A DNA stretch of 64,000 bases from a virus (taxonomy: Duplodnaviria; Heunggongvirae; Uroviricota; Caudoviricetes), in the IMG/VR virus record IMGVR_UViG_3300001605_000009. One strand, given 5' to 3'. Shown piece after piece: positions 9,883-52,388 of the stretch. How positions within the stretch are numbered: position 1 is the first letter of the stretch; every line of letters begins with the position of its first letter. The notes beneath the pieces are model-generated. The model had not been told where the DNA came from. It did no database searches and saw only the letters and a list, made by a program, of their open reading frames with translations. The translations under genes were made by a program, and so were the position numbers.

Positions 9883-9883
9883 A

Positions 9884-11115: not shown

Positions 11116-11141
11116 GTGCCTTTTGCCTTTCTGTTGATACT

Positions 11142-11442: not shown

Positions 11443-11444
11443 GT

Positions 11445-25425: not shown

Positions 25426-25454
25426 GTCTTTTCGTCTTTATTGTCGGCTGTCAG

Positions 25455-34375: not shown

Positions 34376-34376
34376 A

Positions 34377-34727
34377 TCAAAATACCTTTAGCTGATTTGC
34401 ACTGAACCCAATCTGACGATACAGAATATCATTCAAGATAGGAAGTTTAGTTTTAACTATACCCATACGCTGAGAGTTAGGCTTCTTACGAAGAATAGTA
34501 CCTCTAGTCTTTAGACCCGCACCCTTTGCTAGTATAGCAATCTGACGTCCAATCTCATACCCAGGACTACTAATATCGTAGTTAAATGGCTCGCCATTAT
34601 AAATGGAAAGAATACCAGCATGAATACTAGGAATATTTAGCCAGTCTTCTACGGTTGTTCTAACGCCCTCTACGGTAATATTGCTCATTAGTATCTCCAC
34701 TTGTTGAAACCATATTAGCGGATTCAA
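34377..34727 (-). CDS. hypothetical protein
   Basis: ORF only. Confidence 0.35.
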   Translation of the reverse strand: MNPLIWFQQVEILMSNITVEGVRTTVEDWLNIPSIHAGILSIYNGEPFNYDISSPGYEIGRQIAILAKGAGLKTRGTILRKKPNSQRMGIVKTKLPILNDILYRQIGFSANQLKVF

Positions 34728-34756
34728 CGTGAAGGATCAAGACTTAAATTAGGAAC

Positions 34757-34832
34757 TGGTGAACCATGTTGGGATCGAACCAACGACACGGAGATTAAGA
34801 GTCTCCTGCTCTACCTACTGAGCTAATGGTCC
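34757..34832 (-). tRNA. tRNA-Lys (CUU)
   Basis: Acceptor strands GGACCAT and ATGGTTC, D-arm TAGCTCAGTAGGTAGAGC, anticodon stem GGAGA/TCTCC with loop CTCTTAA, and T-loop TTCGATC. Confidence 0.7.
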
Positions 34833-34987
34833 GAATACTTAACTCAATACACTAGATATTGTTAATACCACTCCGTTTAGCTTAAGAGTGCGTAAAAGCG
34901 ACCTGACAATCACCCTTTCGCATAGTGTCAGCTATACCGACACTTTGAGAGAGTGCCGTCTAGTGTACTGAGTTAAATACTCGGTAA

Positions 34988-35063
34988 TGGTGCCTCCCCG
35001 AGGAATCGAACCCCAACCTCTAGTTCTTCAGACCAGCGCGCACACCAGCTACGCCAGAGAGGC
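34988..35063 (-). tRNA. tRNA-Phe (GAA)
   Basis: Acceptor strands GCCTCTC and GGGAGGC, anticodon loop CTGAAGA, and T-loop TTCGATT. Confidence 0.7.
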
Positions 35064-35187
35064 AAAATGCTGTTACGGTAGCACTCCACTTGATTTATAC
35101 ATAGAACGTCAACTAGATAGCGTCTGCAGTACGGACCTAGTAATATAGTCTAGTGATAAATAGTGAAGTGCTGTCATAACAGCACAA

Positions 35188-35269
35188 TGGAGTCGGCGAC
35201 AGGATTCGAACCTGCATTTTCAATCCAGTTACCTTTCTCTCCGTTCGTAGCGGAGGGGGTTACGCCGAC
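35188..35269 (-). tRNA. atypical tRNA-like gene, 82 nt; the anticodon arm may read ACG (Arg) but the D-arm is irregular
   Basis: The acceptor strands GTCGGCG and CGCCGAC pair perfectly, the T-arm is GCAGG-TTCGAAT-CCTGT, and the 3' end is CCA. The internal arms CTCCG-CTACGAA-CGGAG do not fit a standard cloverleaf. Confidence 0.4.
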
Positions 35270-35278
35270 AATATTATT

Positions 35279-35944
35279 TTACCAGTTGGGTACTTTGTTA
35301 GATTTCTTTAGATTTTCTTCTACGGTTAAATACTGTAGGTTATTCTCTACATGTAGTCCACAACTATTTTTAGCGTTAAGAGGGTATATATGATCTACAT
35401 GATACCCTTCTGGACACTCATTATATATTTCTTTTAGCTTCTTAATATCTGCCCATGGAGCTAGGGCTTGTTTTAGTTGGGCCCTTCTTCTGGCATTCTT
35501 TTCTCTACCATGTATTTTCCAGTATTCCTGATGATACTCTTTATTATTTTGATAATTATTCTTATTATATGAAGATTTACAATCTGTGCAGTACCTGTCT
35601 ATACCGTCATGCTCTAGGGCAGATTTAGTGAAAGTCTCTCTTAAAGAGAATTCACTACATCCGGAGCACTTCTTGTAGTCTGACTGTCTTACTAGCCAGG
35701 ATACCCAGGTACCCTCCCCTCCTTGTAGCTTTACCTCAGGAAATAGCCTCTTAACTAATCTATTAAAGGTCTGTTCAGACCTACCAAGACTTTTTATAGC
35801 TTTTGGACCTGTTCCATAAGTAAATAGGGCGTCTACCACTTCTCCAAAACAAATAGGTGGTTTTTCACCTCTTTTGTTAATGACTATAGTGTACTGCCCT
35901 ATGTTTAGGTTTTTATAAATTGATTCTTTTACTTTCTGTTCCAT
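35279..35944 (-). CDS. HNH homing endonuclease, inserted within the tRNA cluster
   Basis: HNH motif GYHVDHIYPLNAKNSCGLHVENNLQYLTVEENLKKSNK. N-terminal DNA-binding region. The promoter at 35953-35997 lies upstream. Confidence 0.75.
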   Translation of the reverse strand: MEQKVKESIYKNLNIGQYTIVINKRGEKPPICFGEVVDALFTYGTGPKAIKSLGRSEQTFNRLVKRLFPEVKLQGGEGTWVSWLVRQSDYKKCSGCSEFSLRETFTKSALEHDGIDRYCTDCKSSYNKNNYQNNKEYHQEYWKIHGREKNARRRAQLKQALAPWADIKKLKEIYNECPEGYHVDHIYPLNAKNSCGLHVENNLQYLTVEENLKKSNKVPNW

Positions 35945-35952
35945 ATTCCAAA

Positions 35953-35997
35953 ATAATAGCAGTTTGGAGGACAGAAGTCAAGAACTAAAATTTGGTA
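35953..35997 (-). promoter_or_regulatory. sigma70 promoter with TTGACT, a 17-nt spacer and TATTAT
   Basis: The minus strand reads aaattttagttcTTGACTtctgtcctccaaactgcTATTAT, followed by the ribosome-binding site and ATG of the HNH gene. Confidence 0.55.
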
Positions 35998-36070
35998 CCC
36001 CAGGCGAGACTCGAACTCGCACAACTTTCGGACCTAAACCGAACGACTTTACCAATTTGCCCACAGGGGC
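35993..36070 (-). tRNA. tRNA with a UAG anticodon (Leu-like); one U-U acceptor mismatch
   Basis: Anticodon stem TTCGG/CCGAA with loop TTTAGGT, T-arm GCGAG-TTCGAGT-CTCGC, and acceptor strands GCCCCTG and CTGGGGT. Confidence 0.5.
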
Positions 36071-36078
36071 ACAATAAA

Positions 36079-36154
36079 TGGTGGAGGATAACGGGATCGA
36101 ACCGTTGGCCTCAACAGTGCAAGTGTTGCGCTCTCCCAGCTGAGCTAATCCCCC
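36079..36154 (-). tRNA. tRNA-Ala (UGC)
   Basis: Acceptor strands GGGGGAT and ATCCTCC (one G-U pair), D-arm TAGCTCAGCTGGGAGAGC, anticodon loop CTTGCAC, and T-loop TTCGATC. Confidence 0.75.
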
Positions 36155-36156
36155 AT

Positions 36157-36232
36157 TGGTACCTGATGACGGTCCTGCCCCGCCGACCTGAGTCTTGTAA
36201 GGACCCCGCTCTACTAACTGAGCTAATCAGGC
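36157..36232 (-). tRNA. tRNA-Val (UAC) with a non-canonical T-loop
   Basis: The whole gene aligns with canonical bacterial tRNA-Val except that the T-loop reads GGCAGGA instead of the canonical TTCGATC. The anticodon loop is CTTACAA. Confidence 0.5.
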
Positions 36233-36380
36233 AAACTTTTTTCTACAGGCATACTTTCGTAGCTGTTTCTTTTTATCTTTAATAACTTTTGGTTTGTTGT
36301 ATCTGTAGCTATTACCTGCTACAGGGTTTCTTGTCTTCATTTCAAGTTCTCCTTATAGCAAGAATTTAACTAACAGTCAA

Positions 36381-36457
36381 CATCTAAATTTGGTGAACCC
36401 TCTGGGATTCGAACCCAGGATCGCGGATTAAAAGCCCACTGCTTTAGGCCTACTAAG
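36381..36457 (-). tRNA. tRNA-Lys (UUU)
   Basis: Acceptor strands GGACCCT and AGGGTTC, anticodon loop CTTTTAA, and T-arm CTGGG-TTCGAAT-CCCAG. Confidence 0.7.
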
Positions 36458-36471
36458 CTAAGGGTCCGTTA

Positions 36472-41498: not shown

Positions 41499-41528
41499 TG
41501 GAAATCTCCTCTTGATACCACCATTATA

Positions 41529-42014
41529 TCATTGTGGACCACAAGGGTCAACAATGATTTGGTGGAATCCCTCATCTAATGTGGGCGGCTGATAGTTACG
41601 ATCCATCTGCCTAAGAATATGCTCTGGAATCCGTTTATCAGGCCTGCTAGCAAGTCGTTCTGCCCAATTATCAGGAATTGGAAAAACAACTGCCGTAAAC
41701 TTATGGTTTGGCAATGCCTTAAACAACCGTGCGCGACTCTTTACTGTTAAGTTTGTACGATCAATGTAAACATCTTCGTTACACCCTTCTAGAAGTTCCC
41801 AAAAATGTGCCTCTGCTTTCTTGATGTATTCTGGGAACACATTATTATATGTTTGTCCTCTAAGCTTAGCAAATAACTCGATAAAATCATCACTAGAAGC
41901 TACAAAGATATTATCTGGTCGGCTGGCAAGCCACGTAGACTTGCCAACTCCAGGAAGACCCACTAAAACATACGCATTAGGCATTATAAATAACTCCTGG
42001 AAACCATTCTGCAC
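41529..42014 (-). CDS. P-loop polynucleotide kinase-like protein (kinase domain of T4 Pnk-type)
   Basis: Walker A motif GLPGVGKST. The gene is small and sits next to the RNA ligase genes. Confidence 0.6.
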   Translation of the reverse strand: MQNGFQELFIMPNAYVLVGLPGVGKSTWLASRPDNIFVASSDDFIELFAKLRGQTYNNVFPEYIKKAEAHFWELLEGCNEDVYIDRTNLTVKSRARLFKALPNHKFTAVVFPIPDNWAERLASRPDKRIPEHILRQMDRNYQPPTLDEGFHQIIVDPCGPQ

Positions 42015-43191
42015 GGATTTCTTCGTACTTACTAGTCTTAGCTAGATTCTTGCGAATAGTATTATAAATTTTTTGCTCACAAACACTAACGGCATCTACG
42101 TACAGAACCTCGTCCCACATAGCAAACGCTATAGATCTATTAAGCCCACTCATTTTATTCGCATATGTGGTCGCGAAAGTCTTCCGATCCATACCACCGA
42201 TACGCCGACAGTTAGATACTTGTGAAACAATAGAGAGTGCCAAAGGATGAATAACTTTATTAAAGTCATTCTCGAACTGAGAAAGACGATCACGCTCTTC
42301 TTGTGGAAGATGCGCTTTCACGTCGTCTAGCTTTTGATCTAGAATAAGTTCAACAATGTGGCGATCCTGTAGAATACGCTCCTTAGCCTTGTGAATCTGC
42401 ACGTACCAGTCACACTTTAGCTTTACCATGTGTCCGTTGTCAAAACGCACAACGAAGCCTTCAGTGTCCTGAAGATCACGAGTGTGCTCAATAAGACCGT
42501 TGATGTGCTCCTGGGACGGGAAGGATTTCACAATTGGGATATTATACTTCTCGATAATAGGATAGTTATTATGAAGGTTGATAATATAACTACCGCGCTC
42601 CATATTACGAATAGCTGTAAGAATCAGACGATCCTCTGGATAGTCTAGAACGATGCGCTGCTTACGTGAGCACCACTCAAAAATAGGAGTAAACCCATTC
42701 TCGATAAGATCACGAGAGAAGTCAATGTAGTGTGGATTGTTATTCACAAACTCCTCAACAGGCTTCGCCACATCAGTAGCACCCATCTTAGTACCGAATA
42801 CTAGAACAGCACGATTAAAGAATGGGGCAATCATTGATCCATCCAGTTTATCCAGAATGATGTGATCCTCATACAGAGGAACATTCTCGGTCTCTGGTCG
42901 TTCGTTTACGTTGAAGAACTTGTGATAAGGACGGCGAAGAATATCGCCCGTTTCGTTGTCAAAGATAATACCCCGACATTCACGACGAGTAGCAGCGTGC
43001 TTAGCATCCGTAAAAGCTAGCTTGTTAAGCTGCTCGCTCCACTCAATCACAGGCGGAAAAGTATCCTCAAACATCACATTGTAGTTGATAACGGTATAAC
43101 CGTCTTTAACAGCCACTACAAATTCACTACGACCTTCAATCGCAGGAAGCACATCACTGATGTTACGAATTACTGGGAATTGATAGTTCAT
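41977..43191 (-). CDS. RNA ligase 1 (T4 RnlA-like)
   Basis: ECRGIIFDNETGDILRRPYHKFFNVNERPET aligns with the T4 Rnl1 segment [34 protein letters not shown]. The nucleotidyltransferase lysine motif DKLDGSM is present. Confidence 0.75.
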   Translation of the reverse strand: MNYQFPVIRNISDVLPAIEGRSEFVVAVKDGYTVINYNVMFEDTFPPVIEWSEQLNKLAFTDAKHAATRRECRGIIFDNETGDILRRPYHKFFNVNERPETENVPLYEDHIILDKLDGSMIAPFFNRAVLVFGTKMGATDVAKPVEEFVNNNPHYIDFSRDLIENGFTPIFEWCSRKQRIVLDYPEDRLILTAIRNMERGSYIINLHNNYPIIEKYNIPIVKSFPSQEHINGLIEHTRDLQDTEGFVVRFDNGHMVKLKCDWYVQIHKAKERILQDRHIVELILDQKLDDVKAHLPQEERDRLSQFENDFNKVIHPLALSIVSQVSNCRRIGGMDRKTFATTYANKMSGLNRSIAFAMWDEVLYVDAVSVCEQKIYNTIRKNLAKTSKYEEIRAEWFPGVIYNA

Positions 43192-43199
43192 TTGTCTCT

Positions 43200-43262
43200 C
43201 CTCTTTGAACCTTTATAGCCCAAAAACGAAAAAAAGTCAAGGCCTATTTTTGGCCTTGACTA
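43200..43262 (-). promoter_or_regulatory. overlapping terminator hairpin and promoter (TTGACT, 17-nt spacer, TATAAA)
   Basis: The minus strand reads GTCAAGGCC-loop-GGCCTTGAC followed by TTTTTTTCG. The TTGACT inside the 3' arm of the hairpin is followed by a 17-nt spacer, TATAAA, a ribosome-binding site and the ATG of the Rnl1-like gene. Confidence 0.55.
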
Positions 43263-43531
43263 ATTCTTTTGTATCGCTGTCGTAACGTAGAAATGACTAT
43301 TTCCCATAGAAACCAAGCACCAAATCCGCCAAATAAGACGTAGGCAGCTAGTGTCTCTCCTAAAAGGTATTCTATACCTAGTTCTACTCCAATTGATAGT
43401 CCACCGACTACTACCACAATAGCTAAAGTTCCTGCTAGAGCCACTCCTAGTAAGATAAAGAAGTCTTTACTTGGAGTAAGTGTCTTTTGTAATGCTTTCC
43501 AATTCATTCTGGCCCACTCCCGTTGCCCCAA
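43244..43531 (-). CDS. small membrane protein
   Basis: Two hydrophobic helices. Confidence 0.4.
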   Translation of the reverse strand: MGQREWARMNWKALQKTLTPSKDFFILLGVALAGTLAIVVVVGGLSIGVELGIEYLLGETLAAYVLFGGFGAWFLWEIVISTLRQRYKRISQGQK

Positions 43532-44160
43532 GCCTTGACAGGCCCAACATATCCTACTACTTCCCAGCGATCCTTAATACGAGCTTCTACTTCGTCGAAG
43601 GACAGAGGCTCGTAGTTAGTGTGCTCTACAGATACACAGAGATAACGCGGGTCAGGAACAGATACTGACTTATATTCACTAGGGTGGGAACTATGGTAAT
43701 CGCTCCAGCCTTTGGATACCATTTTATGCCTAGTCTGCATTACTTCATTGGCATGAAGGTGCCCATGCACGTTAACCTTAAATCGGTCAGTTACGCAGTC
43801 TGGATGCAGCGGAATATGGCTAAGAATAAACTTATCCACAAACACACGAACACCATACATCTTTTCAAAGCCAACTTCCCGATAGTACTTATCATGAAAA
43901 ATATCATGATTACCGCGTACTAGACGCTTCTTACCATTAAGACGTTTTACTAGCTCTAGTGAAGGCTTCTTGATGACAACATCACCAAGATGGTAGACGG
44001 TGTCCTGCGGGCTTACTTTAGCATTCCAACGCTCGATCATGGCCTCGTCCATTTCTTCGTTAGAAGAGAACGGACGTAGAGGATCCCCATTGGGAAGCTT
44101 AAACTTCTGCCACGAATTAGTGTGCCCGAAATGGGTATCACTTATAACAAAGCTGCTCAT
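43504..44160 (-). CDS. calcineurin-like metallophosphoesterase (candidate RNA 2',3'-cyclic phosphodiesterase or 3'-phosphatase in the RNA-repair cluster)
   Basis: Phosphoesterase motifs DTHFGH, GDVV, GNHD and HGHLH. Confidence 0.65.
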   Translation of the reverse strand: MSSFVISDTHFGHTNSWQKFKLPNGDPLRPFSSNEEMDEAMIERWNAKVSPQDTVYHLGDVVIKKPSLELVKRLNGKKRLVRGNHDIFHDKYYREVGFEKMYGVRVFVDKFILSHIPLHPDCVTDRFKVNVHGHLHANEVMQTRHKMVSKGWSDYHSSHPSEYKSVSVPDPRYLCVSVEHTNYEPLSFDEVEARIKDRWEVVGYVGPVKAWGNGSGPE

Positions 44161-44383
44161 TCATATACTCCAATATATCATATAGTACGCTGGTACTGAG
44201 ACCTGTTCGACCTGTTCTTAGATCATCTCGAATACGATCACGAATCATTAGCTCCGCGGCTTCTGCATTCGTGAACATAAAATCATTAAGCTCTTGAAAC
44301 TTCTCAATTTCCTCAAATGAGGGCTCTGGATTATAAGGCTCTCGTGGTTTGTAGGGACCTAAGTCTCTATCATAGTCTGTCAT
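44138..44383 (-). CDS. hypothetical protein (start set to the ATG that overlaps the lipoprotein stop)
   Basis: The ORF in the track begins with TTG. An ATG six nucleotides downstream overlaps the lipoprotein stop as ATGA. Confidence 0.35.
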   Translation of the reverse strand: MTDYDRDLGPYKPREPYNPEPSFEEIEKFQELNDFMFTNAEAAELMIRDRIRDDLRTGRTGLSTSVLYDILEYMNEQLCYK

Positions 44384-44556
44384 GAGCAAGTATCTGGCAT
44401 ATCATAACCCGCAGAATACTTAGGGGCTATCCCATTGTCTGACCCCTGCCAGTATGCTACACCATCTATGCATATAATTTCATATTTAGGTTTAGGGGTT
44501 GGCTCACTGCAACCCGAGAGTAGACCTAGACATAGAATAATTACTGGATATTTCAT
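44380..44556 (-). CDS. small lipoprotein (58 residues, lipobox LLSGC)
   Basis: MKYPVIILCLGLLSGCSEPTPKPKY... It is below the 60-residue ORF cutoff of the track. Its ATG overlaps the Rnl2-like stop as ATGA. Confidence 0.45.
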   Translation of the reverse strand: MKYPVIILCLGLLSGCSEPTPKPKYEIICIDGVAYWQGSDNGIAPKYSAGYDMPDTCS

Positions 44557-45569
44557 GAATTAATCCTTTTAATAAACCAAGGGCGAGCCTTGTTAGCAAT
44601 TGGTCCACCAAGCTTCTTAGGATCAAACCCAGAGGCTACAATAGTATCGGTTTCTTCCTTTACAACATCGTTGTAGACCCAACGAATGAAGTCACCCATT
44701 GAAGTCATATCTAGGGGCTTTAGTTGCTCACGAACTAGGTTATCAACACCCTGTTCTAGACGTTGCTCGGTAACTGTAGTGTCAACGAAGTCCTTGAGAG
44801 CTTGAACGGCTTCAACGTCTACAGCAGCTAGAGTCTTAACCTTAGATGCTGAGTGCTTTTCACCCTTTACCTTGAAACGAAGACCTTCCCAACCTGGTGT
44901 AACGCAGGTCCAAACAACACCTTCTCCGACACCAGATACACCGAAAGCCTTGCCCACAGGGCATTCGTTTTCGACGGCTTCTGTGATTTCGATCATGCGG
45001 TTCTGTGCTAGTTCAGGATGTGCGAAGTCAATGTCAAGCTCCCACATTGGAAACTCCTCAATGTCACGAACACCTGGAATATCAGTAAACTCAGTTTCTC
45101 CAGATAGAGGGTCACTCCAGAGCTCTGTACCGTCTTGTTCAATAAACTTCACTGCGAAGATGACAAACATCTTAGGCAGTTCACTAACAGCCACACCACG
45201 TTGAATGCCTTGTCCACACCACTCACCGTATACGGCAATCTTGCGCACACTTGGGTGGCTCATAGTACCAAAGAATTCTAGCCACTTTTTCTCGTACTTC
45301 ATCTGTGCTAGCATGAAGCCAGCGTTATCCTGAGTAAGACTTAGCACCCGTTCACGAGACTGATAAGAAAGTTCTTGTGAAACATAATCGTACACTACAG
45401 CTGCGTTTGTACCGTGAAGCTTCACAGTACCATGAAACTTCAGAGTTGGAAGCTCCCGTGTATGGTCATAGATTGGCTGGCCTGTATCATCCTTACCGAC
45501 ATAGCGGTGTGACGCCTTCACATGATGAATGACGTTGCGAAACTGCTCGATTGATGGAAACTTAATCAT
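44553..45569 (-). CDS. RNA ligase 2-like nucleotidyltransferase (start corrected to an internal ATG with a ribosome-binding site)
   Basis: KLHGTN matches the KxHGTN lysine motif of T4 Rnl2. The promoter at 45578-45640 and the ribosome-binding site taaggagat place the start at 45569 rather than 45752. Confidence 0.65.
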   Translation of the reverse strand: MIKFPSIEQFRNVIHHVKASHRYVGKDDTGQPIYDHTRELPTLKFHGTVKLHGTNAAVVYDYVSQELSYQSRERVLSLTQDNAGFMLAQMKYEKKWLEFFGTMSHPSVRKIAVYGEWCGQGIQRGVAVSELPKMFVIFAVKFIEQDGTELWSDPLSGETEFTDIPGVRDIEEFPMWELDIDFAHPELAQNRMIEITEAVENECPVGKAFGVSGVGEGVVWTCVTPGWEGLRFKVKGEKHSASKVKTLAAVDVEAVQALKDFVDTTVTEQRLEQGVDNLVREQLKPLDMTSMGDFIRWVYNDVVKEETDTIVASGFDPKKLGGPIANKARPWFIKRINS

Positions 45570-45577: not shown

Positions 45578-45640
45578 CCTTAACAAAACAAATATAGCCC
45601 ATCAACCGAGAAAAGTCAAGGGCTATTGAAAGGCTTGGTC
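45578..45640 (-). promoter_or_regulatory. sigma70 promoter with TTGACT, a 17-nt spacer and TATATT
   Basis: The minus strand reads caatagcccTTGACTtttctcggttgatgggcTATATT. Confidence 0.55.
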
Positions 45641-45775: not shown

Positions 45776-46213
45776 TTAAGCTGTCTTCCATTCATAGTCG
45801 TCTACTGTGCAAACGGACTCAAAGCCGTCATACTCGTCAATTTTATAGAGCGTGCCTTCATCAACTTCCGCAATTTTAAGATTAGAGTATCTAGAATTAG
45901 CCGCTTGTCCAAGAGTCTCTATAACTTCTACTAGGCAAGGGTCAGTACGATCAATATTGCTAACCGAGAAGCAAAGCTTGTTTGAGATCTCAAATCTTCC
46001 TACACCTGCAGGGTTCTGATGGTCTTTTGCTAGTGCCTCCTCATACTCTGGTACAGGGCAGAGATAATAGTTGGTAAAAAAGTCTCCAACTTCATGTTTG
46101 GAGTACAACGTAATCCTCTTTAGTTTTGCGTATAGTTCAACAGCCTTATTGGAGAGCCCAAAACCGCCGTAACAAGCGTTATATACAATCTTAGTCATTA
46201 TGCTGTCTCCCAA
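45776..46213 (-). CDS. hypothetical protein; paralog of the ORF at 46198..46497
   Basis: The C-terminal motif IDEYDGFESVCTVDDYEWKTA matches IEEYDGAETLRLENEYDWETA in the neighbouring ORF. Confidence 0.4.
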   Translation of the reverse strand: MGDSIMTKIVYNACYGGFGLSNKAVELYAKLKRITLYSKHEVGDFFTNYYLCPVPEYEEALAKDHQNPAGVGRFEISNKLCFSVSNIDRTDPCLVEVIETLGQAANSRYSNLKIAEVDEGTLYKIDEYDGFESVCTVDDYEWKTA

Positions 46214-46497
46214 TCGTATTCATTTTCTAGCCGCAAAGTTTCTGCACCATCATACTCTTCAATACGAAAACGTGTGCCTACTGGAACCCACCGAACTACT
46301 AGTCCTTCAATACCACCAACATAGGCGTCCGGATAAATTTCTCTAGCAATATCTACAATTTCAGTCTCAGACTGTCCCTCTAGAAGGGCCTCTACGATTC
46401 TAGGTTCAAATACATTCTGTCCCCACGTTGACCATCCCGATCCGAATCCACGAGACACTAAAACAGCAACTTCCCCGTCTACAATAAACTTACTCAT
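46198..46497 (-). CDS. hypothetical protein; tandem paralog
   Basis: Shares the C-terminal motif described for the ORF at 45776..46213. Confidence 0.4.
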   Translation of the reverse strand: MSKFIVDGEVAVLVSRGFGSGWSTWGQNVFEPRIVEALLEGQSETEIVDIAREIYPDAYVGGIEGLVVRWVPVGTRFRIEEYDGAETLRLENEYDWETA

Positions 46498-47115: not shown

Positions 47116-48492
47116 TTACTTGATTTCAGCGCGTTTTCGAATGTCCTCGAAAGTTTGCTGCTTAGGGACTTCTCCGTCTACAAAGACTACTCGAAGATAG
47201 TCACCTACTGTTTCATAGTCGTCTTCATGATTACTTACTGTAAAGTACTCGTTGTAGAATGTTTTACCTAACTTCAGCAAGCCCCGCTTAGAGCGCTTAC
47301 CACTATCAGTGACTGGATCTTTATAAACATCAACCCATTTGCCGTTGATCTTAGCAGCTGAGCACTTCATGGCGAATTTAAAATCGTCTCGATTAACGAT
47401 CTGAAGAAGCGCGCCGCCCTGACCAAAGACTACGTTATCAGCACTGAAGTCGTGTGCTGCTAGATTGTCTAGAATAGCACGAATAGAGTCGATGTTGATA
47501 CCGTCACCCTGCAATACGCGAACGTTATTAAGAACCTTAAAGCCCTTTTCGTTTACAGTGTAGCCGAAGTATTCTGCTAGAATGCTTACGCAGTCTAGTA
47601 CTACTTTCTTTGGCTCTCCAGAGTCCGGACGAACAACAAGAGTAGCGCCGCTGTCTAGAACATCCTGCTTTAGTACTGTACCCCACAGCTTGCAGGCTTC
47701 ATAGATATTGTAGCTGTCTGAAACAGCGGATACAATACCACCTGGCTTACCATTCTTCTTAACCATGTTACGGTACGCGTCAACTTCGTTTTCGCGACCC
47801 CAACTGGTTACAGTGCTATGTTCCATAGCGGGAACACTGAACCCAGCCATATCAGCACCATAGTGGCGACGAGCAAAGAGCAGAGCTTCAATAGTGTCAG
47901 TACCCATGAAGTTGACAAGATGCGCTGCTCCGCCAATTCCAGCCGACTCAAGCGAGCTAACACCGCGAGAACCAAAGTCATGAAGCTTAAAGCTAATATC
48001 AGCAGGAGTTCCAGTGCGAACGAGAGCATCTAGAATGACCTTCTTAATTTCGCGGCTATTGGTAGCCACAGTTGTAGGATACCAGATCGCTCGAAGAAGC
48101 GCGGTTTCTAGGAACGACGTCAACCACCAGCAATTTGGATCAGTATTCTCAATAGTGGCGAGCACGTTATGAGTTGGCACGACAGTGCCCTCATGTACAG
48201 CTGTGATAAGAACAGGAAGACGACCGTCATGCTCACGAACAATGTACTCCCAACCCTCACGGTTGAAAGGCTCACCATGTGCTAGAATGATGGCTTCCGC
48301 TTCATCAATCATTTCCATAGTGATAGGTTCCATCAAGTATTCTTGAATGAATGCCTGAAGACCAAAGAACACAGTTTCGTCGTACTTGCCACCACGGCTT
48401 TCGATGTAGCTATATACGATTTCAGTACCTTCGGGGTACTGGTTAAATTGGCTGTATTTGTAGCTATCGCTGTTTAGGATAATGTTTTTCAT
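47116..48492 (-). CDS. nadV: nicotinamide phosphoribosyltransferase (NadV/NAMPT)
   Basis: A 458-residue protein with an NAMPT-like N-terminus (LNSDSYKYSQFNQYP) and overall family architecture. Confidence 0.8.
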   Translation of the reverse strand: MKNIILNSDSYKYSQFNQYPEGTEIVYSYIESRGGKYDETVFFGLQAFIQEYLMEPITMEMIDEAEAIILAHGEPFNREGWEYIVREHDGRLPVLITAVHEGTVVPTHNVLATIENTDPNCWWLTSFLETALLRAIWYPTTVATNSREIKKVILDALVRTGTPADISFKLHDFGSRGVSSLESAGIGGAAHLVNFMGTDTIEALLFARRHYGADMAGFSVPAMEHSTVTSWGRENEVDAYRNMVKKNGKPGGIVSAVSDSYNIYEACKLWGTVLKQDVLDSGATLVVRPDSGEPKKVVLDCVSILAEYFGYTVNEKGFKVLNNVRVLQGDGINIDSIRAILDNLAAHDFSADNVVFGQGGALLQIVNRDDFKFAMKCSAAKINGKWVDVYKDPVTDSGKRSKRGLLKLGKTFYNEYFTVSNHEDDYETVGDYLRVVFVDGEVPKQQTFEDIRKRAEIK

Positions 48493-48540: not shown

Positions 48541-49014
48541 TCAAGCCCAATATTTAGTAATGTATGTGATTAGGTCTTCCAAACTATCAACCACATTAAG
48601 ATCATATACGCTAGAAACAATATCTACATTTCCTTTACGCCAGAACGGATCAGGACAGTATACAATAGCCTGTTGTCCCATTCCAGCAACAAGGCCAAGC
48701 TCTAGTAGAGTAATTGGTGATTTTGTACTTGGATCAAATACAAATACTACCAGATCACTGTTTTCAATACCAGATAGCTCCCATAGTACTTGCTCTTGAA
48801 ACTGTTCGTTATCAATAGATTGAGTCCAACTGCTGTCCCAATCATCCCTACGAGGATTAAGGAAGGTAATATCACTATTCTGAAAATGACTAACTAATTC
48901 ATCTTGCCAGTTGATAGCTGTACCCATTTCAATAGAGCCAGCTAGAAAGATTAAAGTATTAAACTCATCAAACTCATTTGGGGCTTTAATTACTTGCATA
49001 TACTGTTGTTCCAT
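48541..49014 (-). CDS. nucleoside 2-deoxyribosyltransferase-like or Rcl-like protein
   Basis: The IFLAGSI motif and a Rossmann-like fold resemble the deoxyribosyltransferase/LOG superfamily. Confidence 0.45.
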   Translation of the reverse strand: MEQQYMQVIKAPNEFDEFNTLIFLAGSIEMGTAINWQDELVSHFQNSDITFLNPRRDDWDSSWTQSIDNEQFQEQVLWELSGIENSDLVVFVFDPSTKSPITLLELGLVAGMGQQAIVYCPDPFWRKGNVDIVSSVYDLNVVDSLEDLITYITKYWA

Positions 49015-49959: not shown

Positions 49960-50144
49960 CTCCTAATAATTGCTTGATGACCACAATTAGGGCAGTCTAC
50001 CCACTCGTGTCCATCAGGACCGCCACTGTAGTCCCTACCACGGTACTCTTTCACTTCACAGAGCTTGTACTCTAGAATAGAAGCACATCCGCGACAGGTA
50101 ATCCGCTTCACAGCTGACTCGTCTCGTCCTACAACTTTAACCAT
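49953..50144 (-). CDS. zinc-ribbon protein
   Basis: CRGC...CPNCGH motif. Confidence 0.4.
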   Translation of the reverse strand: MVKVVGRDESAVKRITCRGCASILEYKLCEVKEYRGRDYSGGPDGHEWVDCPNCGHQAIIRSW

Positions 50145-51189
50145 TTAGTAGTTCCTTAATGATATGATAATGATCGTCGAACATAACACTTTCATCTAGC
50201 TCAGAGATATTAATCCAGCCAGCTGAGACAGCATCATCTGCGCCAACCACATCAGGTCGTTTACCCATCCAGCTAATATCAAAGTAAAAACAGTGACTTA
50301 CAGTATGTCCCATAGTTGAGCGACCTGGATGATCGGCAATGAACAGCTTTGGCTTCCCACTAAGTAGTAGGTCATCCTTAGTAAGTTGCAAACCAGTTTC
50401 TTCAAGCAGCTCACGAAGTGAGCCAGCTAGTGTGCGCTCGCCCGCATTAAGATGGCCCCCAGGAAGAGCTAGAAGCCCCTTACCGGGGTGTTTTCCACGC
50501 TCTACAAGCAGAATCTGGTCGTTATATCGAACCACAGCATCTACAGTGATCTGCTTAACAGGATACGGGGAAGAAGACCACAACTCTGTGTTTATATCAA
50601 TTTCTGTCTGCCAATCAGACATGTAGTTGATAAAACCTAGCTCAGAGTTAGTAATTACGTCTACTGTGCTCCATGGGAGGTTATCTAGCTGTAGCGAAAA
50701 GTCTCGGAAGAGTTCTTCACGAATATCAGTGGCATTCAGCGGGGCATCAATAGCCCACTCTACTAGATCATAGTTTGGGAACATATCAAGGTAGTAGCTA
50801 GACTCGTCCTTACGGGCACCGATGATGCCAATCTTGAGGTCAGCAGTACCATTGTTGTGAAATCCATCAGGATTGGCAACGTCTAGTGCTGTGAACTTGA
50901 TAGCTTCTCTTACTTCGGCAGCCCATGCACTATCATCATAGGGCTGGTCCCGAATAGCGTCTGTATATAGATTTGTGCCTTCAGGATAAGAAGCTAGAAT
51001 CATATCAGAGCGCTCTTCATAGGTCCATGGATTCTTTGGAGTACGCGCACCACCAGAACTTCCAATAAGAACTAGGACGTTCTTGGCTTTGGTAAAAGCA
51101 TGGTCGATCACACTCTTGTGACCCTTATGAAACGGCTGAAAGCGTCCGATGTATACTAGAAGGTCGTACATTATTATCTCCTTATGCAC
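50137..51189 (-). CDS. bifunctional NMN adenylyltransferase and Nudix ADP-ribose pyrophosphatase (NadM-Nudix, NatV-like)
   Basis: Nucleotidyltransferase motif GRFQPFHKGH at the N-terminus and Nudix box GGHLNAGERTLAGSLRELLEETG at the C-terminus. Confidence 0.85.
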   Translation of the reverse strand: MHKEIIMYDLLVYIGRFQPFHKGHKSVIDHAFTKAKNVLVLIGSSGGARTPKNPWTYEERSDMILASYPEGTNLYTDAIRDQPYDDSAWAAEVREAIKFTALDVANPDGFHNNGTADLKIGIIGARKDESSYYLDMFPNYDLVEWAIDAPLNATDIREELFRDFSLQLDNLPWSTVDVITNSELGFINYMSDWQTEIDINTELWSSSPYPVKQITVDAVVRYNDQILLVERGKHPGKGLLALPGGHLNAGERTLAGSLRELLEETGLQLTKDDLLLSGKPKLFIADHPGRSTMGHTVSHCFYFDISWMGKRPDVVGADDAVSAGWINISELDESVMFDDHYHIIKELLNG

Positions 51190-51459: not shown

Positions 51460-51697
51460 AGTTGCGCTCCAGGTACTCTTTTAAGTCCTCTTGAGACATT
51501 TTGAGATTCTCTTCTGTCTGCTTTTGAATTGCCTCTAAGATAATCTCATTTCTTACTTTAATGGAATCGCCCCGAAAGCATTGACTAAGTTTCGACCGTA
51601 GATTGGAAACTTCTAGTCTTAGCGCTATGATCTCTTCTTTCAGGTCGTTGATAGTTTCTACCCTACCCCAGTCTTCTGGATCATTTATACTCATCAA
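51449..51697 (-). CDS. hypothetical coiled-coil protein
   Basis: ORF only. Confidence 0.3.
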   Translation of the reverse strand: MMSINDPEDWGRVETINDLKEEIIALRLEVSNLRSKLSQCFRGDSIKVRNEIILEAIQKQTEENLKMSQEDLKEYLERNYDC

Positions 51698-52388
51698 TAG
51701 CCTTTCGTTTTCCTAATATGTCTAAAATTACAGAGATAAATCCCTCATTAGAGGAATCTATATGGTGACTCACGTGTCTATGCTCTCCACCAGTTAAAAT
51801 ACCAAATACTAATCCTCTATTGATAGCACCACTATCGTCGTGATTAAAGGTAGACCACGACAAGGTTACCAGAGCGCAAGCTGCTGGAACCAGCCACAGA
51901 AATAGAAGGGCCTTCAAAGAAATTAGTAGTAACAATACTGGTAAGCACACTAGTATCCAGTAGTGACGCTGAAAGAACATAACTCTAGGATTCTTACTTA
52001 ACCTAGCAATTGTTCGATAGTCTCCCTTATCTTTATCTACCCAAAAGAGTGGAAAAGCGGCTCTCCAACCTATGTATTTTGGAGAGTGAGGATCACGATT
52101 CGTGTCTACGTATTTATGGTGATTAATGTGTATAGAGGCTGCCTCTAGTGGAGTTGACATACTACCATAGAACCCAAAAGCTAGACATATAAATTCTATA
52201 GCTGGGTGAAACTTGTGTGTTTGATGGGTTATTACTCTATGATAAGTAGCTGTATACCCAACACACCTAAATAGAAAAAATACTAGAATAGATACTAGTG
52301 CCCAACCTAGGGTTATAAAGTATAAAGACGCTAAGGCTAGTATAGGCAGCGTTATCTGCAATATAAACAGAAATAGAGCCTTATTCAT
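51681..52388 (-). CDS. membrane di-iron His-box enzyme (fatty acid desaturase or hydroxylase family)
   Basis: Three histidine boxes (HRVITHQTH, HINHHKY and HRHVSHH) and multiple transmembrane segments. Confidence 0.5.
   Translation of the reverse strand: MNKALFLFILQITLPILALASLYFITLGWALVSILVFFLFRCVGYTATYHRVITHQTHKFHPAIEFICLAFGFYGSMSTPLEAASIHINHHKYVDTNRDPHSPKYIGWRAAFPLFWVDKDKGDYRTIARLSKNPRVMFFQRHYWILVCLPVLLLLISLKALLFLWLVPAACALVTLSWSTFNHDDSGAINRGLVFGILTGGEHRHVSHHIDSSNEGFISVILDILGKRKAIDEYK

What the first reader, a model, noticed from the sequence alone, without database searches (positions are those of the whole stretch)
41529..45569. RNA-repair cluster: Rnl1-like ligase, polynucleotide-kinase-like kinase, metallophosphoesterase, Rnl2-like ligase and an embedded mini-lipoprotein
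An RnlA-like protein (with a long match to T4 Rnl1), a P-loop kinase, a calcineurin-like phosphoesterase and a KxHGTN-motif Rnl2-like ligase are linked on the minus strand, with overlapping stops and starts. The chemistry matches healing and sealing of tRNAs cleaved by host anticodon nucleases (PrrC, RloC or similar). The presence of two different ligases, and of a separate kinase and phosphatase instead of a fused Pnkp, is unusual. A 58-residue lipoprotein (LLSGC lipobox) is translationally coupled to the Rnl2-like gene. It resembles the small receptor-blocking or superinfection-exclusion lipoproteins of T5-like phages.
Basis: partly seen in the sequence, partly recalled or inferred. Interest (0 to 1): 0.65.

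Follow-up and report, generated by a model that had tools for sequence, protein, structure and literature searches.

The report
Phage RNA-repair gene cluster, ordinary kind
An uncultivated T5-like phage carries two RNA ligases, a small RNA 5'-kinase and a metal-dependent phosphoesterase side by side, most likely a kit for mending host-cut tRNAs; the kit is real, but it is a variation on what phage T4 and many sequenced phages are already known to carry.

Summary
On the minus strand of 41529-45569 lie an Rnl2-type ligase, a 58-aa lipoprotein, an 81-aa ORF, a metallophosphoesterase (MPE), an 87-aa membrane protein, an Rnl1-type ligase and a 151-aa P-loop kinase. Both ligases keep the catalytic lysine and the other nucleotidyltransferase motifs. 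The kinase family's best solved match is the T4 Pnkp kinase domain.

Surveys of related loci show that the conserved core is the Rnl1-kinase pair: 59 of 80 Rnl1 loci have the kinase, always on the same strand and often overlapping. The MPE joins this pair in about 29% of loci. The Rnl2-type ligase is only loosely linked. The lipoprotein, p81 and the membrane protein occur only in the closest relatives.

A strong terminator fused to a promoter splits the cluster into two predicted early transcription units.

T4 has both ligases. Cr30 and DSS3P8 carry the same Rnl1-kinase pair. The stand-alone kinase is the norm for this Rnl1 subfamily. Published comparative work already describes such combinations.

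The MPE belongs to the uncharacterised aq_1665 clade, not the lambda-phosphatase/CthPnkp clade, so its 3'-end-healing role is inferred only. The lipoprotein shows no similarity to T5 Llp.

Verdict: new member of a known kind, modest interest.

The parts
45591..45619 (-). Promoter P1 (TTGACT-17-TATATT) upstream of the Rnl2-type ligase gene, inside the inverted repeat ATAGCCC...GGGCTAT
   Evidence: The pattern TTGAC-N18-TATAWT occurs 19 times in the window against 0.13 expected.
44553..45569 (-). Rnl2-type ATP-dependent RNA ligase, 338 aa. Motif I is K50-L-H-G-T-N. Nucleotidyltransferase domain plus helical C-terminal domain.
   Evidence: PF09414 47.5 bits, above cut-off. phrog_548 E=9e-64. Family profile hits T4 Rnl2 2hvq at E=1.6e-4 with motifs I, III, IV and V aligned. 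AlphaFold model pLDDT 84.5; best Foldseek PDB hit is full-length T4 Rnl2, E=1.8e-12. More than 6,700 homologues.
44380..44556 (-). 58-aa predicted lipoprotein (signal peptide, lipobox LLSG|C, two further conserved Cys). Its start overlaps the ligase stop (ATGA).
   Evidence: Only 3 homologue clusters among 5.8 billion proteins; the lipobox, C29 and C57 are invariant. It sits at the same position in relative L170. It is the most divergent syntenic gene there: 63% identity against 85-96% for the enzymes.
44138..44383 (-). p81, an 81-aa acidic soluble protein of unknown function. ATGA overlap with the lipoprotein gene and 23-nt overlap with the MPE gene.
   Evidence: No Pfam, PHROG or NCBIfam hit. 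85% identical in L170. Not found in other loci.
43504..44160 (-). Binuclear metallophosphoesterase of the aq_1665 clade, 218 aa. Motifs D8-x-H10, G59-D60, G83-N84-H85-D86, H115 and H132-G-H134-x-H136 are intact.
   Evidence: Invariant columns. The family profile hits only PDB 1xm7 (aq_1665), E=1.8e-22. Best NCBIfam hit is PdeM, E=1.7e-9, below cut-off. More than 5,100 homologues, the top 120 at 70% identity or more.
43244..43507 (-). TM87, an 87-aa protein with two predicted membrane spans and a basic C-terminal tail. ATGA overlap with the MPE stop.
   Evidence: No family hit. Found only in identical contigs. Replaced by other small ORFs in L170.
43222..43261 (-). Intrinsic-terminator-like hairpin (10-bp GC-rich stem, 7-nt loop, T-run) that ends the first transcription unit. 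The TM87 stop codon lies in the loop.
   Evidence: RNA fold -19.5 kcal/mol, z=-5.97, none of 200 shuffles as stable.
43212..43240 (-). Promoter P2 (TTGACT-17-TATAAA). Its -35 hexamer is the 3' arm of the terminator hairpin. It drives Rnl1 and the kinase.
   Evidence: Sequence read. GGGCTATAAA shares the GGGCTATAWW -10 context of P1 and of the promoter at 47072.
41977..43191 (-). Rnl1-type RNA ligase, 404 aa. Motif I K115 (ILDKLDGS). The equivalents of T4 R54, K75, F77, G102, E159, E227, G228, K240 and K242 are conserved. The T4-like C-terminal domain is present.
   Evidence: Subfamily alignment.
41529..41984 (-). Stand-alone polynucleotide-5'-kinase-like P-loop protein, 151 aa. P-loop G9-x-P-G-x-G-K15-S-T, Asp32, D75-x-T-N, R114. 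Overlaps the Rnl1 stop by 8 nt.
   Evidence: AAA_33. Best NCBIfam hits are bacterial Pnkp, PNKP and PSTK. The family profile (42 sequences) hits the T4 Pnkp kinase domain 1ly1 best, E=7e-16, residues 1-144, then the CthPnkp kinase, PSTK and Pnkp1. Within 8 kb of Rnl1 in 59 of 80 related loci, 54 of them within 1.3 kb.
41523..41551 (-). Promoter P3 (TTGACC-17-TATAAT, with TG) inside the 3' end of the kinase gene. It starts the next unit (p102 and downstream genes).

Best explanation
The interval holds two adjacent early transcription units of an uncultivated T5-like phage. Together they encode an RNA break-repair ('healing and sealing') toolkit.

Unit 2 is the conserved core. It holds an Rnl1-type ligase translationally coupled to a stand-alone kinase that corresponds to the N-terminal 5'-kinase domain of T4 Pnkp. 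After a host anticodon nuclease or other metal-independent RNase cuts a tRNA, the ends are 5'-OH and 2',3'-cyclic phosphate. The kinase phosphorylates the 5'-OH. Rnl1 is adenylylated at K115, transfers AMP to the 5'-phosphate and seals the loop.

Unit 1 supplies the metallophosphoesterase. It is the most likely enzyme for opening and removing the 2',3'-cyclic or 3'-phosphate to give the 3'-OH that the ligase needs. Unit 1 also supplies an Rnl2-type ligase (K50) that probably seals nicks in duplex RNA regions, as a second and independent sealing activity.

The lipoprotein, p81 and TM87 are lineage-specific passengers inserted between the conserved genes. They are not parts of the repair chemistry.

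Shown here: domain identities, intact catalytic motifs, gene order and overlaps, promoter and terminator signals, and conservation of the Rnl1-kinase(-MPE) neighbourhood. Inferred: every enzymatic activity, the tRNA substrate, the role of the MPE, and early co-regulation.
For: Rnl1: homology to T4 Rnl1 including the C-terminal domain, with all essential residues kept.

Kinase: the family profile's best solved match is the whole T4 Pnkp kinase domain (E=7e-16), followed only by other polynucleotide or tRNA kinases. The P-loop, D32, the DxTN motif and R114 are invariant or nearly so.

Linkage: among 80 IMG/VR loci anchored on this Rnl1 subfamily, the kinase is within 8 kb in 59. It is always on the same strand, and 54 are within 1.3 kb, many overlapping. 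The same pair is in the isolates Cr30 (gp022/gp021) and DSS3P8 (gp105/gp106).

MPE: present in 23 of 80 Rnl1 loci. Among 18 non-redundant arrangements the median gap to the pair is 244 nt, always on the same strand, and adjacency holds in several different gene orders (window MPE-TM-Rnl1-kin; L011 Rnl1-kin-MPE; L136 and L165 MPE-Rnl1-kin).

In related loci other healing enzymes occupy the same place. These are a CthPnkp-like kinase-MPE fusion beside Rnl1 in L156, kinase-2H-phosphodiesterase fusions in L066 and L062, and a full bacterial-type Pnkp in L071. This is consistent with a conserved need for 5' and 3' end-healing next to these ligases.

The Rnl2-type fold and motifs are shown.

Genomic context is counter-defence. 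The window holds at least 16 phage tRNA genes, including Lys(UUU), Lys(CUU) and Tyr, plus a tmRNA. NAMPT and NadM NAD+-salvage genes lie immediately upstream (NARP2 as defined in bioRxiv 10.1101/2024.02.11.579819).

The T4 precedent is rnlA and pseT lying 1.4 kb apart with small membrane and lipoprotein genes between them. The general scheme is published in PMC7824862.
Against: No activity was measured.

The MPE is not in the lambda-phosphatase/CthPnkp clade, the one for which RNA 2',3'-cyclic phosphodiesterase and phosphatase activity is documented. Its profile matches only the uncharacterised aq_1665. Its best NCBIfam hit is a DNA endonuclease family, PdeM.

The reciprocal survey shows that 63 of 80 loci anchored on this MPE family have no Rnl1 or kinase within 8 kb, and 18 of 25 when at least 4 kb is available on both sides. 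The MPE therefore has a life of its own.

The MPE and the Rnl1-kinase pair are predicted to lie on different transcripts.

The Rnl2-type ligase is mostly unlinked to the others.

The surveyed loci are the 80 most similar of each scan. Some are duplicates or close relatives, so the counts overstate independent events.

The host and its nucleases are unknown.
Confidence: 0.62

Rival explanations
1. The metallophosphoesterase is not a repair component. It is an independent, highly conserved phage enzyme that merely lies in the same early, accessory-gene region. Possible roles are a DNA or RNA nuclease of the PdeM/aq_1665 type, or a hydrolase of nucleotide-derived signals or metabolites. The 3'-end healing would then be done by another protein or not at all.
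For: The profile matches only aq_1665, and the best NCBIfam family is the PdeM endonuclease. 63 of 80 MPE-anchored loci lack Rnl1 or the kinase within 8 kb. The MPE is more conserved and more widespread than the ligases, at 70% identity or more in the top 120 clusters. A terminator separates it from Rnl1-kinase. A second, unrelated MPE lies in the window at 27532-28323.
Against: When the MPE and the Rnl1-kinase pair co-occur they are nearly always directly adjacent, on the same strand, in several different orders. The window holds no HAD, 2H or HD phosphatase next to the ligases. Related loci place other MPE or CPD domains in the same position, fused to the kinase.
Confidence: 0.35
2. The small kinase is a small-molecule kinase serving nucleotide or NAD+ metabolism (nucleoside, nucleotide or nicotinamide-riboside kinase), in line with the neighbouring NAMPT/NadM genes. 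It is not a polynucleotide kinase.
For: The AAA_33 fold is shared with many small-molecule kinases. Weaker hits to adenylate and shikimate kinases appear. NAD+ salvage genes lie 3-8 kb upstream. The equivalent of T4 R38 is not conserved.
Against: The top nine PDB sequences are polynucleotide or tRNA kinases at E=7e-16 to 1e-13, followed by mammalian PNKP at about 1e-11. Adenylate kinases score about 4e-5. The gene is physically coupled to Rnl1, not to NAMPT, in 54 of 80 loci.
Confidence: 0.08
3. The lipoprotein is the functionally interesting element: an early-expressed outer-membrane lipoprotein that blocks the phage receptor or excludes superinfecting phages, as T5 Llp and Cor do. It would be co-expressed with, but unrelated to, RNA repair.
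For: A valid lipobox with Ser at +2, and two further invariant Cys. It lies in an operon with a sigma-70-type early promoter. Its distribution is narrow and it is the fastest-diverging syntenic gene: 63% identity against 85-96% for its neighbours. The replication module of the phage is T5-like.
Against: No sequence similarity to T5 Llp or any T5-like phage at E<=10. It is not next to a receptor-binding protein gene. There are only four sequence variants, so rate inference is weak. Similarity to T4 PseT.2 and to P2 Rz1 is confined to the signal peptide.
Confidence: 0.25
4. Lipoprotein and TM87 form a spanin-type or holin-type lysis pair, as in T4, where the spanin genes pseT.3 and pseT.2 lie between rnlA and pseT.
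For: T4 places a lipoprotein o-spanin and an i-spanin between its RNA-repair genes. TM87 has two membrane spans and a basic tail like a class II holin (read from the sequence). There is a weak Rz1-like hit at E=0.009.
Against: TM87 has no periplasmic coiled-coil domain, so it is not an i-spanin. The two genes are not adjacent. Both are absent or replaced in close relatives. The genes sit behind an early-type promoter. Similarity to PseT.2 is confined to the signal peptide.
Confidence: 0.04

Closest known systems
Phage T4 RNA repair pathway (Rnl1/gp63 + Pnkp/PseT), which counters the PrrC anticodon nuclease
   Same: An Rnl1-type ligase with a T4-like C-terminal domain. A kinase homologous to the Pnkp N-terminal domain over its whole length. 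The genes lie close together in an early region with small membrane and lipoprotein genes between them. A second, Rnl2-type ligase is also encoded.
   Different: The kinase is a separate 151-aa protein with no DxDxT (HAD) phosphatase domain. The candidate 3' phosphoesterase is a binuclear metallophosphoesterase. Identity is only 29% for Rnl1 and 28% for the kinase. The phage backbone is T5-like, not T4-like.
Bacterial Pnkp (Clostridium thermocellum Pnkp-Hen1) and the Pnkp1-Rnl-Hen1 repair systems
   Same: The same three chemistries are combined: P-loop 5' kinase, metallophosphoesterase-type 2',3' phosphatase and ATP-dependent ligase. The kinase matches the CthPnkp and Pnkp1 kinase domains. PMC3675462, PMC2190708 and PMC4411300 describe these systems.
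   Different: Here there are three separate proteins rather than one polypeptide. The ligase is Rnl1-type, not the Pnkp ligase domain. The MPE is aq_1665-type, with no match to the CthPnkp phosphatase 4j6o or to lambda phosphatase. There is no Hen1 methyltransferase.
Rnl1-kinase gene pairs in isolated phages: Caulobacter phage Cr30 (gp022/gp021, plus Rnl2-type gp031 and MPE gp033) and roseophage DSS3P8 (gp105/gp106)
   Same: The same subfamilies in the same order, with an overlapping Rnl1 stop and kinase start. Cr30 also has the Rnl2-type ligase (54% identity) and a metallophosphoesterase within 6 kb. DSS3P8 also has NadM and NAMPT next to the pair.
   Different: 36-42% identity for Rnl1. The intervening small genes differ. 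In those records the kinase is annotated only as 'ATPase' or 'hypothetical protein', and nobody has tested it.
T4 Rnl2 (gp24.1) family of nick-sealing RNA ligases
   Same: The same two-domain architecture and motifs I, III, IV and V. T4 Rnl2 is the best structural match.
   Different: About 16% identity. It scores far below the NCBIfam equivalog cut-off: 28.8 bits against 197. It belongs to a large separate clade, phrog_548, with more than 6,700 metagenomic members and no characterised representative that I could find.
T5 Llp and Cor receptor-blocking lipoproteins
   Same: A small, early-expressed predicted outer-membrane lipoprotein in a T5-like phage.
   Different: No detectable sequence similarity. 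It is not adjacent to a receptor-binding protein gene. Function is untested.

Membership tests
T4 Rnl1 family (PF09511 / TIGR02308) | Motif I lysine (KxDG) that forms the ligase-AMP adduct, plus the essential residues R54, K75, F77, G102, E159, E227, G228, K240 and K242 of T4 Rnl1 | tested here: met
   ILDK115LDGS aligns with T4 K99. ECRG, HKFFN, FEW, TEGFV and VKLKCDWY align with the T4 residues. The list of essential T4 residues is from my own knowledge of the published mutational analysis.
T4 Rnl1 family (PF09511 / TIGR02308) | Score above the curated family thresholds | tested here: inconclusive
   Pfam PF09511 scores 104.3 bits against a cut-off of 28.3, so it is met. NCBIfam equivalog TIGR02308 scores 151.4 against 242.25, so it is not met. 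The protein is a family member but not a T4-RnlA equivalog.
T4 Rnl1 family (PF09511 / TIGR02308) | C-terminal all-helical domain that confers tRNA specificity | tested here: inconclusive
   PF20819 scores 25.3 bits, just under the cut-off of 27. The BLASTP alignment runs to T4 residue 367 of 374. tRNA specificity itself cannot be tested here.
Rnl2 family (PF09414 / TIGR02307) | Motif I KxHGxN lysine and motifs III, IV and V | tested here: met
   K50-LHGTN, FGEW, GEG and FKVKGEKH align with K35, E99, E204 and K225/K227 of T4 Rnl2. All are invariant in 28 homologues.
Rnl2 family (PF09414 / TIGR02307) | Two-domain architecture: nucleotidyltransferase domain plus helical C-terminal domain | tested here: met
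   Model pLDDT 84.5, with helices at 252-337. Full-length T4 Rnl2 is the top Foldseek hit, E=1.8e-12, over 359 alignment columns.
Rnl2 family (PF09414 / TIGR02307) | Equivalog-level sequence similarity to T4 Rnl2 | tested here: not met
   TIGR02307 scores 28.8 bits against a cut-off of 197.15. There is no phmmer hit to any PDB chain. Identity is about 16%. It is Rnl2-type in fold and motifs but forms a separate clade.
Polynucleotide 5'-kinase (T4 Pnkp N-terminal domain clade) | P-loop GxxGxGKS/T, catalytic Asp (T4 D35), and lid Arg | tested here: met
   G9-LPGVG-K15-ST is numbered exactly as in T4. D32 aligns with D35. R114 lies in the lid. All are invariant or at least 90% conserved in 42 homologues. 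The equivalent of T4 R38 is not conserved.
Polynucleotide 5'-kinase (T4 Pnkp N-terminal domain clade) | Closest relatives are polynucleotide kinases rather than small-molecule kinases | tested here: met
   Profile hits in order: 1ly1/1ltq (T4 Pnkp) at 7e-16, CthPnkp kinase at 4e-15, PSTK, Pnkp1 and mammalian PNKP. Adenylate kinases come only at about 4e-5.
T4-type bifunctional Pnkp | Fused C-terminal DxDxT (HAD) 3'-phosphatase domain | tested here: not met
   The protein is 151 aa and ends after the kinase domain. The alignment covers T4 residues 1-144 only. No HAD domain is encoded in 40-47 kb.
Binuclear metallophosphoesterase superfamily | Metal-binding motifs DxH, GD, GNH(D/E), H, GH(x)H | tested here: met
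   D8, H10, D60, N84, H85, H115, H134 and H136 are invariant in 22 and in 27 homologues. PF12850 and PF00149 score above cut-off.
RNA 2',3'-phosphoesterase clade of the MPE superfamily (CthPnkp phosphatase / lambda phosphatase) | Specific sequence relationship to enzymes with documented 2',3'-cyclic phosphodiesterase and phosphatase activity | tested here: not met
   The family profile matches only aq_1665 (1xm7) at E<=0.1. There is no match to 4j6o or to lambda phosphatase. The activity could still be present, but it does not follow from membership.
RNA 2',3'-phosphoesterase clade of the MPE superfamily (CthPnkp phosphatase / lambda phosphatase) | Enzymatic removal of 2',3'-cyclic or 3'-phosphate from RNA ends | not testable with these tools
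   This needs biochemistry. The AlphaFold model was too poor (pLDDT 63) for active-site or fold comparison.
Bacterial lipoprotein | Signal peptide with lipobox [LVI][ASTVI][GAS]C | tested here: met
   MKYPVIILCLGLLSG|C. LLSGC is invariant in all 4 variants.
T5 Llp / Cor receptor-blocking lipoproteins | Sequence homology to Llp or Cor | tested here: not met
   tblastn against all phage records at E<=10 gave no T5-like or Cor-carrying phage. The best hits (E=0.02) are hypothetical proteins of Vibrio phages.
T5 Llp / Cor receptor-blocking lipoproteins | Blocks the phage's own receptor or excludes superinfection | not testable with these tools
   This needs adsorption and plating assays.
Two-component spanin (o-spanin lipoprotein) | An adjacent or embedding i-spanin gene with an N-terminal TM segment and a long periplasmic domain | tested here: not met
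   The downstream gene p81 has no TM segment. TM87 has two TM segments and no periplasmic domain, and is separated by two genes.

The most novel reading that the evidence does not exclude
The aq_1665-type metallophosphoesterase is the missing 3'-end-healing enzyme of a 'split Pnkp'. In this reading a three-protein module made of Rnl1, a stand-alone T4-type 5' kinase and this MPE is the standard tRNA-repair kit of a very large group of uncultivated aquatic phages. That would assign a first function to the aq_1665/PdeM-like MPE clade on RNA ends. It would also mean that thousands of phages with the MPE alone carry a general 2',3'-cyclic-phosphate-clearing enzyme.
Probability: 0.35. Interest if true: 0.45.

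Novelty: new member of a known kind. Interest (0 to 1): 0.3.

Why it matters
If the reading is right, this phage pairs two answers to tRNA-cutting host defences: repairing broken tRNAs and supplying its own (at least 16 tRNA genes). NAD+-restoring genes lie next door, so the region looks like a counter-defence neighbourhood.

The useful general point is comparative. The Rnl1-kinase pair is a conserved, translationally coupled unit across many uncultivated phages and in isolates, where the kinase is still annotated as 'ATPase' or 'hypothetical'. Annotation could be corrected on that basis. The aq_1665-type MPE is a concrete, testable candidate for a new RNA end-healing enzyme.

None of this changes the accepted picture of phage RNA repair.

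Tried and rejected
- Megablast of the region against 50,697 phage records found nothing. Blastn found only short patches inside the enzyme genes. The phage is not close to any isolate.
- phmmer of the Rnl2-type ligase against PDB found nothing. A family profile and a structure model were needed.
- Structure prediction of the MPE. The second gave pLDDT 63, with the segment around the H115 and H132-H136 motifs below 50. I ran no fold search on it.
- Burroughs & Aravind 2016 (PMC5062991), the main comparative paper on RNA repair systems, is not held. I cannot say whether it already describes this exact triad.
- Lipoprotein as T5 Llp homologue: rejected, no similarity. As o-spanin: rejected, no i-spanin partner and only the signal peptide is similar.
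- p81 as a conserved partner of the MPE: rejected. The small ORF preceding the MPE in L174 is unrelated.
- The second MPE of the window (27532-28323) as a lambda-phosphatase-like alternative healing enzyme: no PDB match at all, so this stays unresolved.
- The longer 399-aa reading of the Rnl2-type ORF (start 45752) and the GTG start of the kinase (42014): rejected in favour of 45569 and 41984, from homologue lengths, the Shine-Dalgarno sequence, the promoter position and the gene calls.
- Plus-strand ORFs antisense to the cluster (up to 110 aa): none was submitted to a family search; the Pfam, PHROG and NCBIfam scans covered only minus-strand ORFs. I treated them as spurious because each lies antisense inside a well-supported gene.

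Full report
**What is there**

The interval 41529-45569 carries seven minus-strand genes. In order of transcription they are:

| Gene | Coordinates | Size |
|---|---|---|
| Rnl2-type ligase | 45569-44553 | 338 aa |
| Lipoprotein | 44556-44380 | 58 aa |
| p81 | 44383-44138 | 81 aa |
| Metallophosphoesterase (MPE) | 44160-43504 | 218 aa |
| TM87, a two-span membrane protein | 43507-43244 | 87 aa |
| Rnl1-type ligase | 43191-41977 | 404 aa |
| P-loop kinase | 41984-41529 | 151 aa |

It left out p81 and TM87.

The junctions are as described. There are ATGA overlaps at Rnl2/lipoprotein, lipoprotein/p81 and MPE/TM87. p81 and the MPE gene overlap by 23 nt, and Rnl1 and the kinase gene by 8 nt.

The window is identical to part of a 106-kb metagenome contig, ENA ERZ27315062. 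The same genes recur in other assemblies. No isolated phage is close at the DNA level.

**The enzymes**

*Rnl1.* PF09511 E=1e-29, and T4 Rnl1 structures at E about 1e-31. It is 29% identical to T4 RnlA over 334 residues, reaching nearly the end of the C-terminal domain. K115 lies in ILDKLDGS at the position of T4 K99, and the other essential positions are kept.

*Rnl2-type ligase.* It passes Pfam PF09414 but has no single-sequence match in the PDB. A 28-sequence profile reaches T4 Rnl2 at E=1.6e-4, with KxHGTN, FGEW, EG and KxK aligned. An AlphaFold model (pLDDT 84.5) has full-length T4 Rnl2 as its best Foldseek hit (E=1.8e-12), ahead of trypanosome REL1 and Naegleria Rnl. It is Rnl2-type in fold and motifs, but a separate and very large clade with more than 6,700 homologues. 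It falls far below the NCBIfam equivalog cut-off.

*Kinase.* The single sequence gives only marginal hits to polynucleotide kinases. A profile of 42 homologues collected from related loci hits the T4 Pnkp kinase domain best (1ly1, E=7e-16, residues 1-144). Next come the CthPnkp kinase, PSTK, Pnkp1 and mammalian PNKP. Small-molecule kinases score about ten orders of magnitude worse. The P-loop has the same numbering as in T4, and the catalytic Asp is conserved. The protein stops where the T4 phosphatase domain would begin.

*MPE.* All metal-binding motifs are invariant. It belongs to a clade whose only solved relative is Aquifex aq_1665, a structure without a known function (1xm7, E=1.8e-22). 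The best NCBIfam family is the ligase-associated endonuclease PdeM, below cut-off. It shows no specific relationship to the lambda-phosphatase/CthPnkp clade, the one for which RNA 2',3'-phosphoesterase activity is documented (PMC2190708 and PMC3675462). My model of it was too poor to use.

**Which genes really belong together**

I fetched three sets of 80 viral loci, anchored on the Rnl2-type ligase, on Rnl1 and on the MPE. I scanned their six-frame ORFs with iterated HMMs built from the window proteins.

| Anchor (80 loci each) | Result |
|---|---|
| Rnl1 | Kinase within 8 kb in 59, always same strand, 54 within 1.3 kb, many overlapping |
| Rnl1 | MPE in 23; among 18 non-redundant arrangements the median gap to the pair is 244 nt |
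| Rnl1 | Rnl2-type ligase in 4 |
| Rnl2-type ligase | 58 have none of the other three genes |
| MPE | 63 have no Rnl1 or kinase within 8 kb (18 of 25 with at least 4 kb on both sides) |

Where the MPE accompanies the Rnl1-kinase pair, it is always on the same strand, and adjacency holds in several different gene orders.

The lipoprotein, p81 and TM87 were found only in identical contigs and in one close relative, L170. There the lipoprotein is the most diverged syntenic gene: 63% identity against 85-96% for the enzymes.

So the conserved unit is Rnl1 plus the kinase. The MPE is a frequent but optional third member that also lives alone. The Rnl2-type ligase is an independent gene that happens to be adjacent here. 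The three small genes are lineage-specific insertions.

A caveat applies to these counts. Each set is the 80 most similar loci of one scan, and some are duplicates or close relatives. The counts are therefore not independent events.

**Alternative healing enzymes in related loci**

Beside these same ligases I found three other arrangements:
- A CthPnkp-like kinase-MPE fusion next to Rnl1 in L156, matching PDB 4jst at 3e-14 and 4j6o at 3e-11.
- Kinase fused to a 2H cyclic phosphodiesterase, as in fungal Trl1, in L066 and L062.
- A complete bacterial-type Pnkp (kinase-MPE-ligase) in L071.

This pattern of non-orthologous replacement is what one expects if a 5' kinase and a 2',3' phosphoesterase are both needed next to the ligase. 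It is my best argument that the MPE in the window fills the phosphoesterase slot. It is still an argument by analogy, because the MPE clade differs.

**Transcription**

The window is rich in strong sigma-70-type promoters. TTGAC-N18-TATAWT occurs 19 times against 0.13 expected, almost all on the minus strand.

- One promoter lies at 45619-45591, before the Rnl2-type gene.
- Between TM87 and Rnl1 there is a 10-bp GC-rich hairpin followed by a T-run (-19.5 kcal/mol, z=-6).
- The 3' arm of that hairpin is the -35 hexamer of a second promoter, TTGACT-17-TATAAA.
- A third promoter sits in the 3' end of the kinase gene.

I therefore predict two adjacent early units, [Rnl2-lipoprotein-p81-MPE-TM87] and [Rnl1-kinase], rather than one operon. 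Both units have the same promoter type, so co-regulation remains plausible. These are consensus matches, not measured transcripts.

**Context**

The replication genes are T5-like: Pol A, primase, DnaB-type helicase, a D5-like regulator and a split NAD+ ligase.

The window also holds:
- at least 16 tRNA genes, including Lys(UUU), Lys(CUU), Tyr, Gln and Thr;
- a permuted alphaproteobacterial-type tmRNA;
- NAMPT and NadM/Nudix NAD+-salvage genes immediately upstream of the cluster.

The NAMPT/NadM pair corresponds to the published NARP2 counter-defence pathway (bioRxiv 10.1101/2024.02.11.579819).

The best protein matches for Rnl1 are to phages of Caulobacter, Ruegeria, Synechococcus and Rhizobium. 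Those for the Rnl2-type ligase also include phages of Leptolyngbya and Ralstonia. Together with the alphaproteobacterial-type tmRNA, this hints at an alphaproteobacterial host, but it does not establish one.

**Comparison with what is known**

T4 encodes Rnl1, Rnl2 and Pnkp. Its rnlA and pseT lie 1.4 kb apart, with alc, the two spanin genes (one a lipoprotein) and pseT.1 between them.

Caulobacter phage Cr30 has MPE, Rnl2-type ligase, Rnl1 and 'ATPase' within 6 kb, with the Rnl1 and kinase genes overlapping. Roseophage DSS3P8 has Rnl1, an overlapping 'NK superfamily' protein, and NadM and NAMPT nearby.

Iyer et al. 2021 (PMC7824862) make three relevant statements:
- These ligases work with polynucleotide kinases and phosphoesterases.

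The claims that two ligases, or a split kinase and phosphatase, are unusual therefore do not stand.

What I could not find in the literature available to me is any biochemical test of the stand-alone kinase, of this MPE clade on RNA ends, or of the phrog_548 Rnl2-type clade.

**Lipoprotein**

It is a credible gene. The lipobox and two further cysteines are invariant in four variants, and the position in L170 is conserved. It has only three homologue clusters in 5.8 billion proteins. It shows no similarity to T5 Llp or any T5-like phage. Only its signal peptide resembles T4 PseT.2 or P2 Rz1.

Early expression and fast divergence fit a host-surface or exclusion role. That is a guess at about one in four. 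It is not part of the repair chemistry.

**Verdict**

This is a new member of a known kind: a phage RNA healing-and-sealing gene set in the T4 tradition, with the kinase as a separate protein and an uncharacterised MPE as the likely 3' healer.

Interest is modest (0.3). The most novel reading still open is that the aq_1665-type MPE is a new RNA end-healing enzyme, part of a widespread split Pnkp. I put that at about 0.35.

Noticed in passing
window 25157-25500 (-): A phage-encoded, permuted (two-piece) alphaproteobacterial-type tmRNA. Rfam RF01849 scores 79.7 bits and RF04321 scores 90.8 bits. ARAGORN gives the tag ANDNSAFEGLALVA. It hints at an alphaproteobacterial host and at phage interference with ribosome rescue.
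   Followed up: partly
window 9216-11530 and 33349-36467 (-): At least 16 tRNA genes in two clusters: 14 by ARAGORN, plus two more by Rfam at 35191-35269 and 36160-36232. They include Lys(UUU), Lys(CUU), Tyr(GUA), Gln, Thr, Arg(UCU) and Ile(UAU). Several of these isoacceptors are known targets of anticodon nucleases, so tRNA replacement and tRNA repair may be combined in this phage.
   Followed up: partly
window 47116-48492, 48541-49014, 50137-51189 (-): NAD+ salvage genes directly upstream of the cluster: NAMPT, a nucleoside 2-deoxyribosyltransferase-like protein, and NadM-type NMN adenylyltransferase fused to Nudix. NAMPT plus NadM corresponds to the NARP2 counter-defence pathway. Roseophage DSS3P8 shows the same linkage to Rnl1-kinase (L167).
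   Followed up: partly
window 11626-18600 (-): A 2,324-aa ORF with no PHROG match at E<=1e-5, lying between the tRNA cluster and the nucleotide-metabolism genes. Its function is unknown.
   Followed up: no
window-wide; examples 43261-43212, 47108-47072, 45626-45591 (-): Strong sigma-70-type promoters are hugely over-represented (19 against 0.13 expected). Several are built into hairpins, so a terminator stem or inverted repeat carries the -35 hexamer, with a shared GGGCTATAWW -10 context. These are compact terminator-promoter modules between early genes.
   Followed up: partly
window 109-8152 (-): A T5-like replication module: family A DNA polymerase, primase, DnaB-type helicase, a D5-like regulator and a 316-aa NAD-dependent DNA ligase piece (split ligase as in T5). 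The accessory genes are most similar to those of phages of Alphaproteobacteria.
   Followed up: partly
window 27532-28323 and 31158-31955 (-): A second, unrelated metallophosphoesterase (phrog_1649, no PDB sequence match), and a 265-aa protein matching the 'lipoprotein' family phrog_200.
   Followed up: partly
window 45776-46213 and 46198-46497 (-); loci L096, L097, L099, L135, L138, L140, L162-L164: p145 (phrog_16527) and its shorter paralogue p99, both of unknown function, lie just upstream of the cluster. p145 homologues recur 2-4 kb from Rnl1 in about 12 related loci.
   Followed up: no
L156:4822-6276, L066:4220-5146, L062:4292-5113, L071:2601-5072: Related viral contigs carry other end-healing architectures beside the same ligases. 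L156 has a CthPnkp-like kinase-metallophosphoesterase fusion without a ligase domain. L066 and L062 have a kinase fused to a 2H cyclic phosphodiesterase (fungal Trl1-like). L071 has a complete 824-aa bacterial-type Pnkp.
   Followed up: partly
window 51681-52388 and 52381-52926 (-): A fatty-acid desaturase (PF00487) and a pentapeptide-repeat protein encoded by the phage. These are probable auxiliary or host-takeover genes.
   Followed up: no
L178/L179 (contigs with MPE homologue P0136); L092/L180: Some related phages carry two paralogous stand-alone AAA_33 kinases between Rnl1 and the MPE.
   Followed up: no
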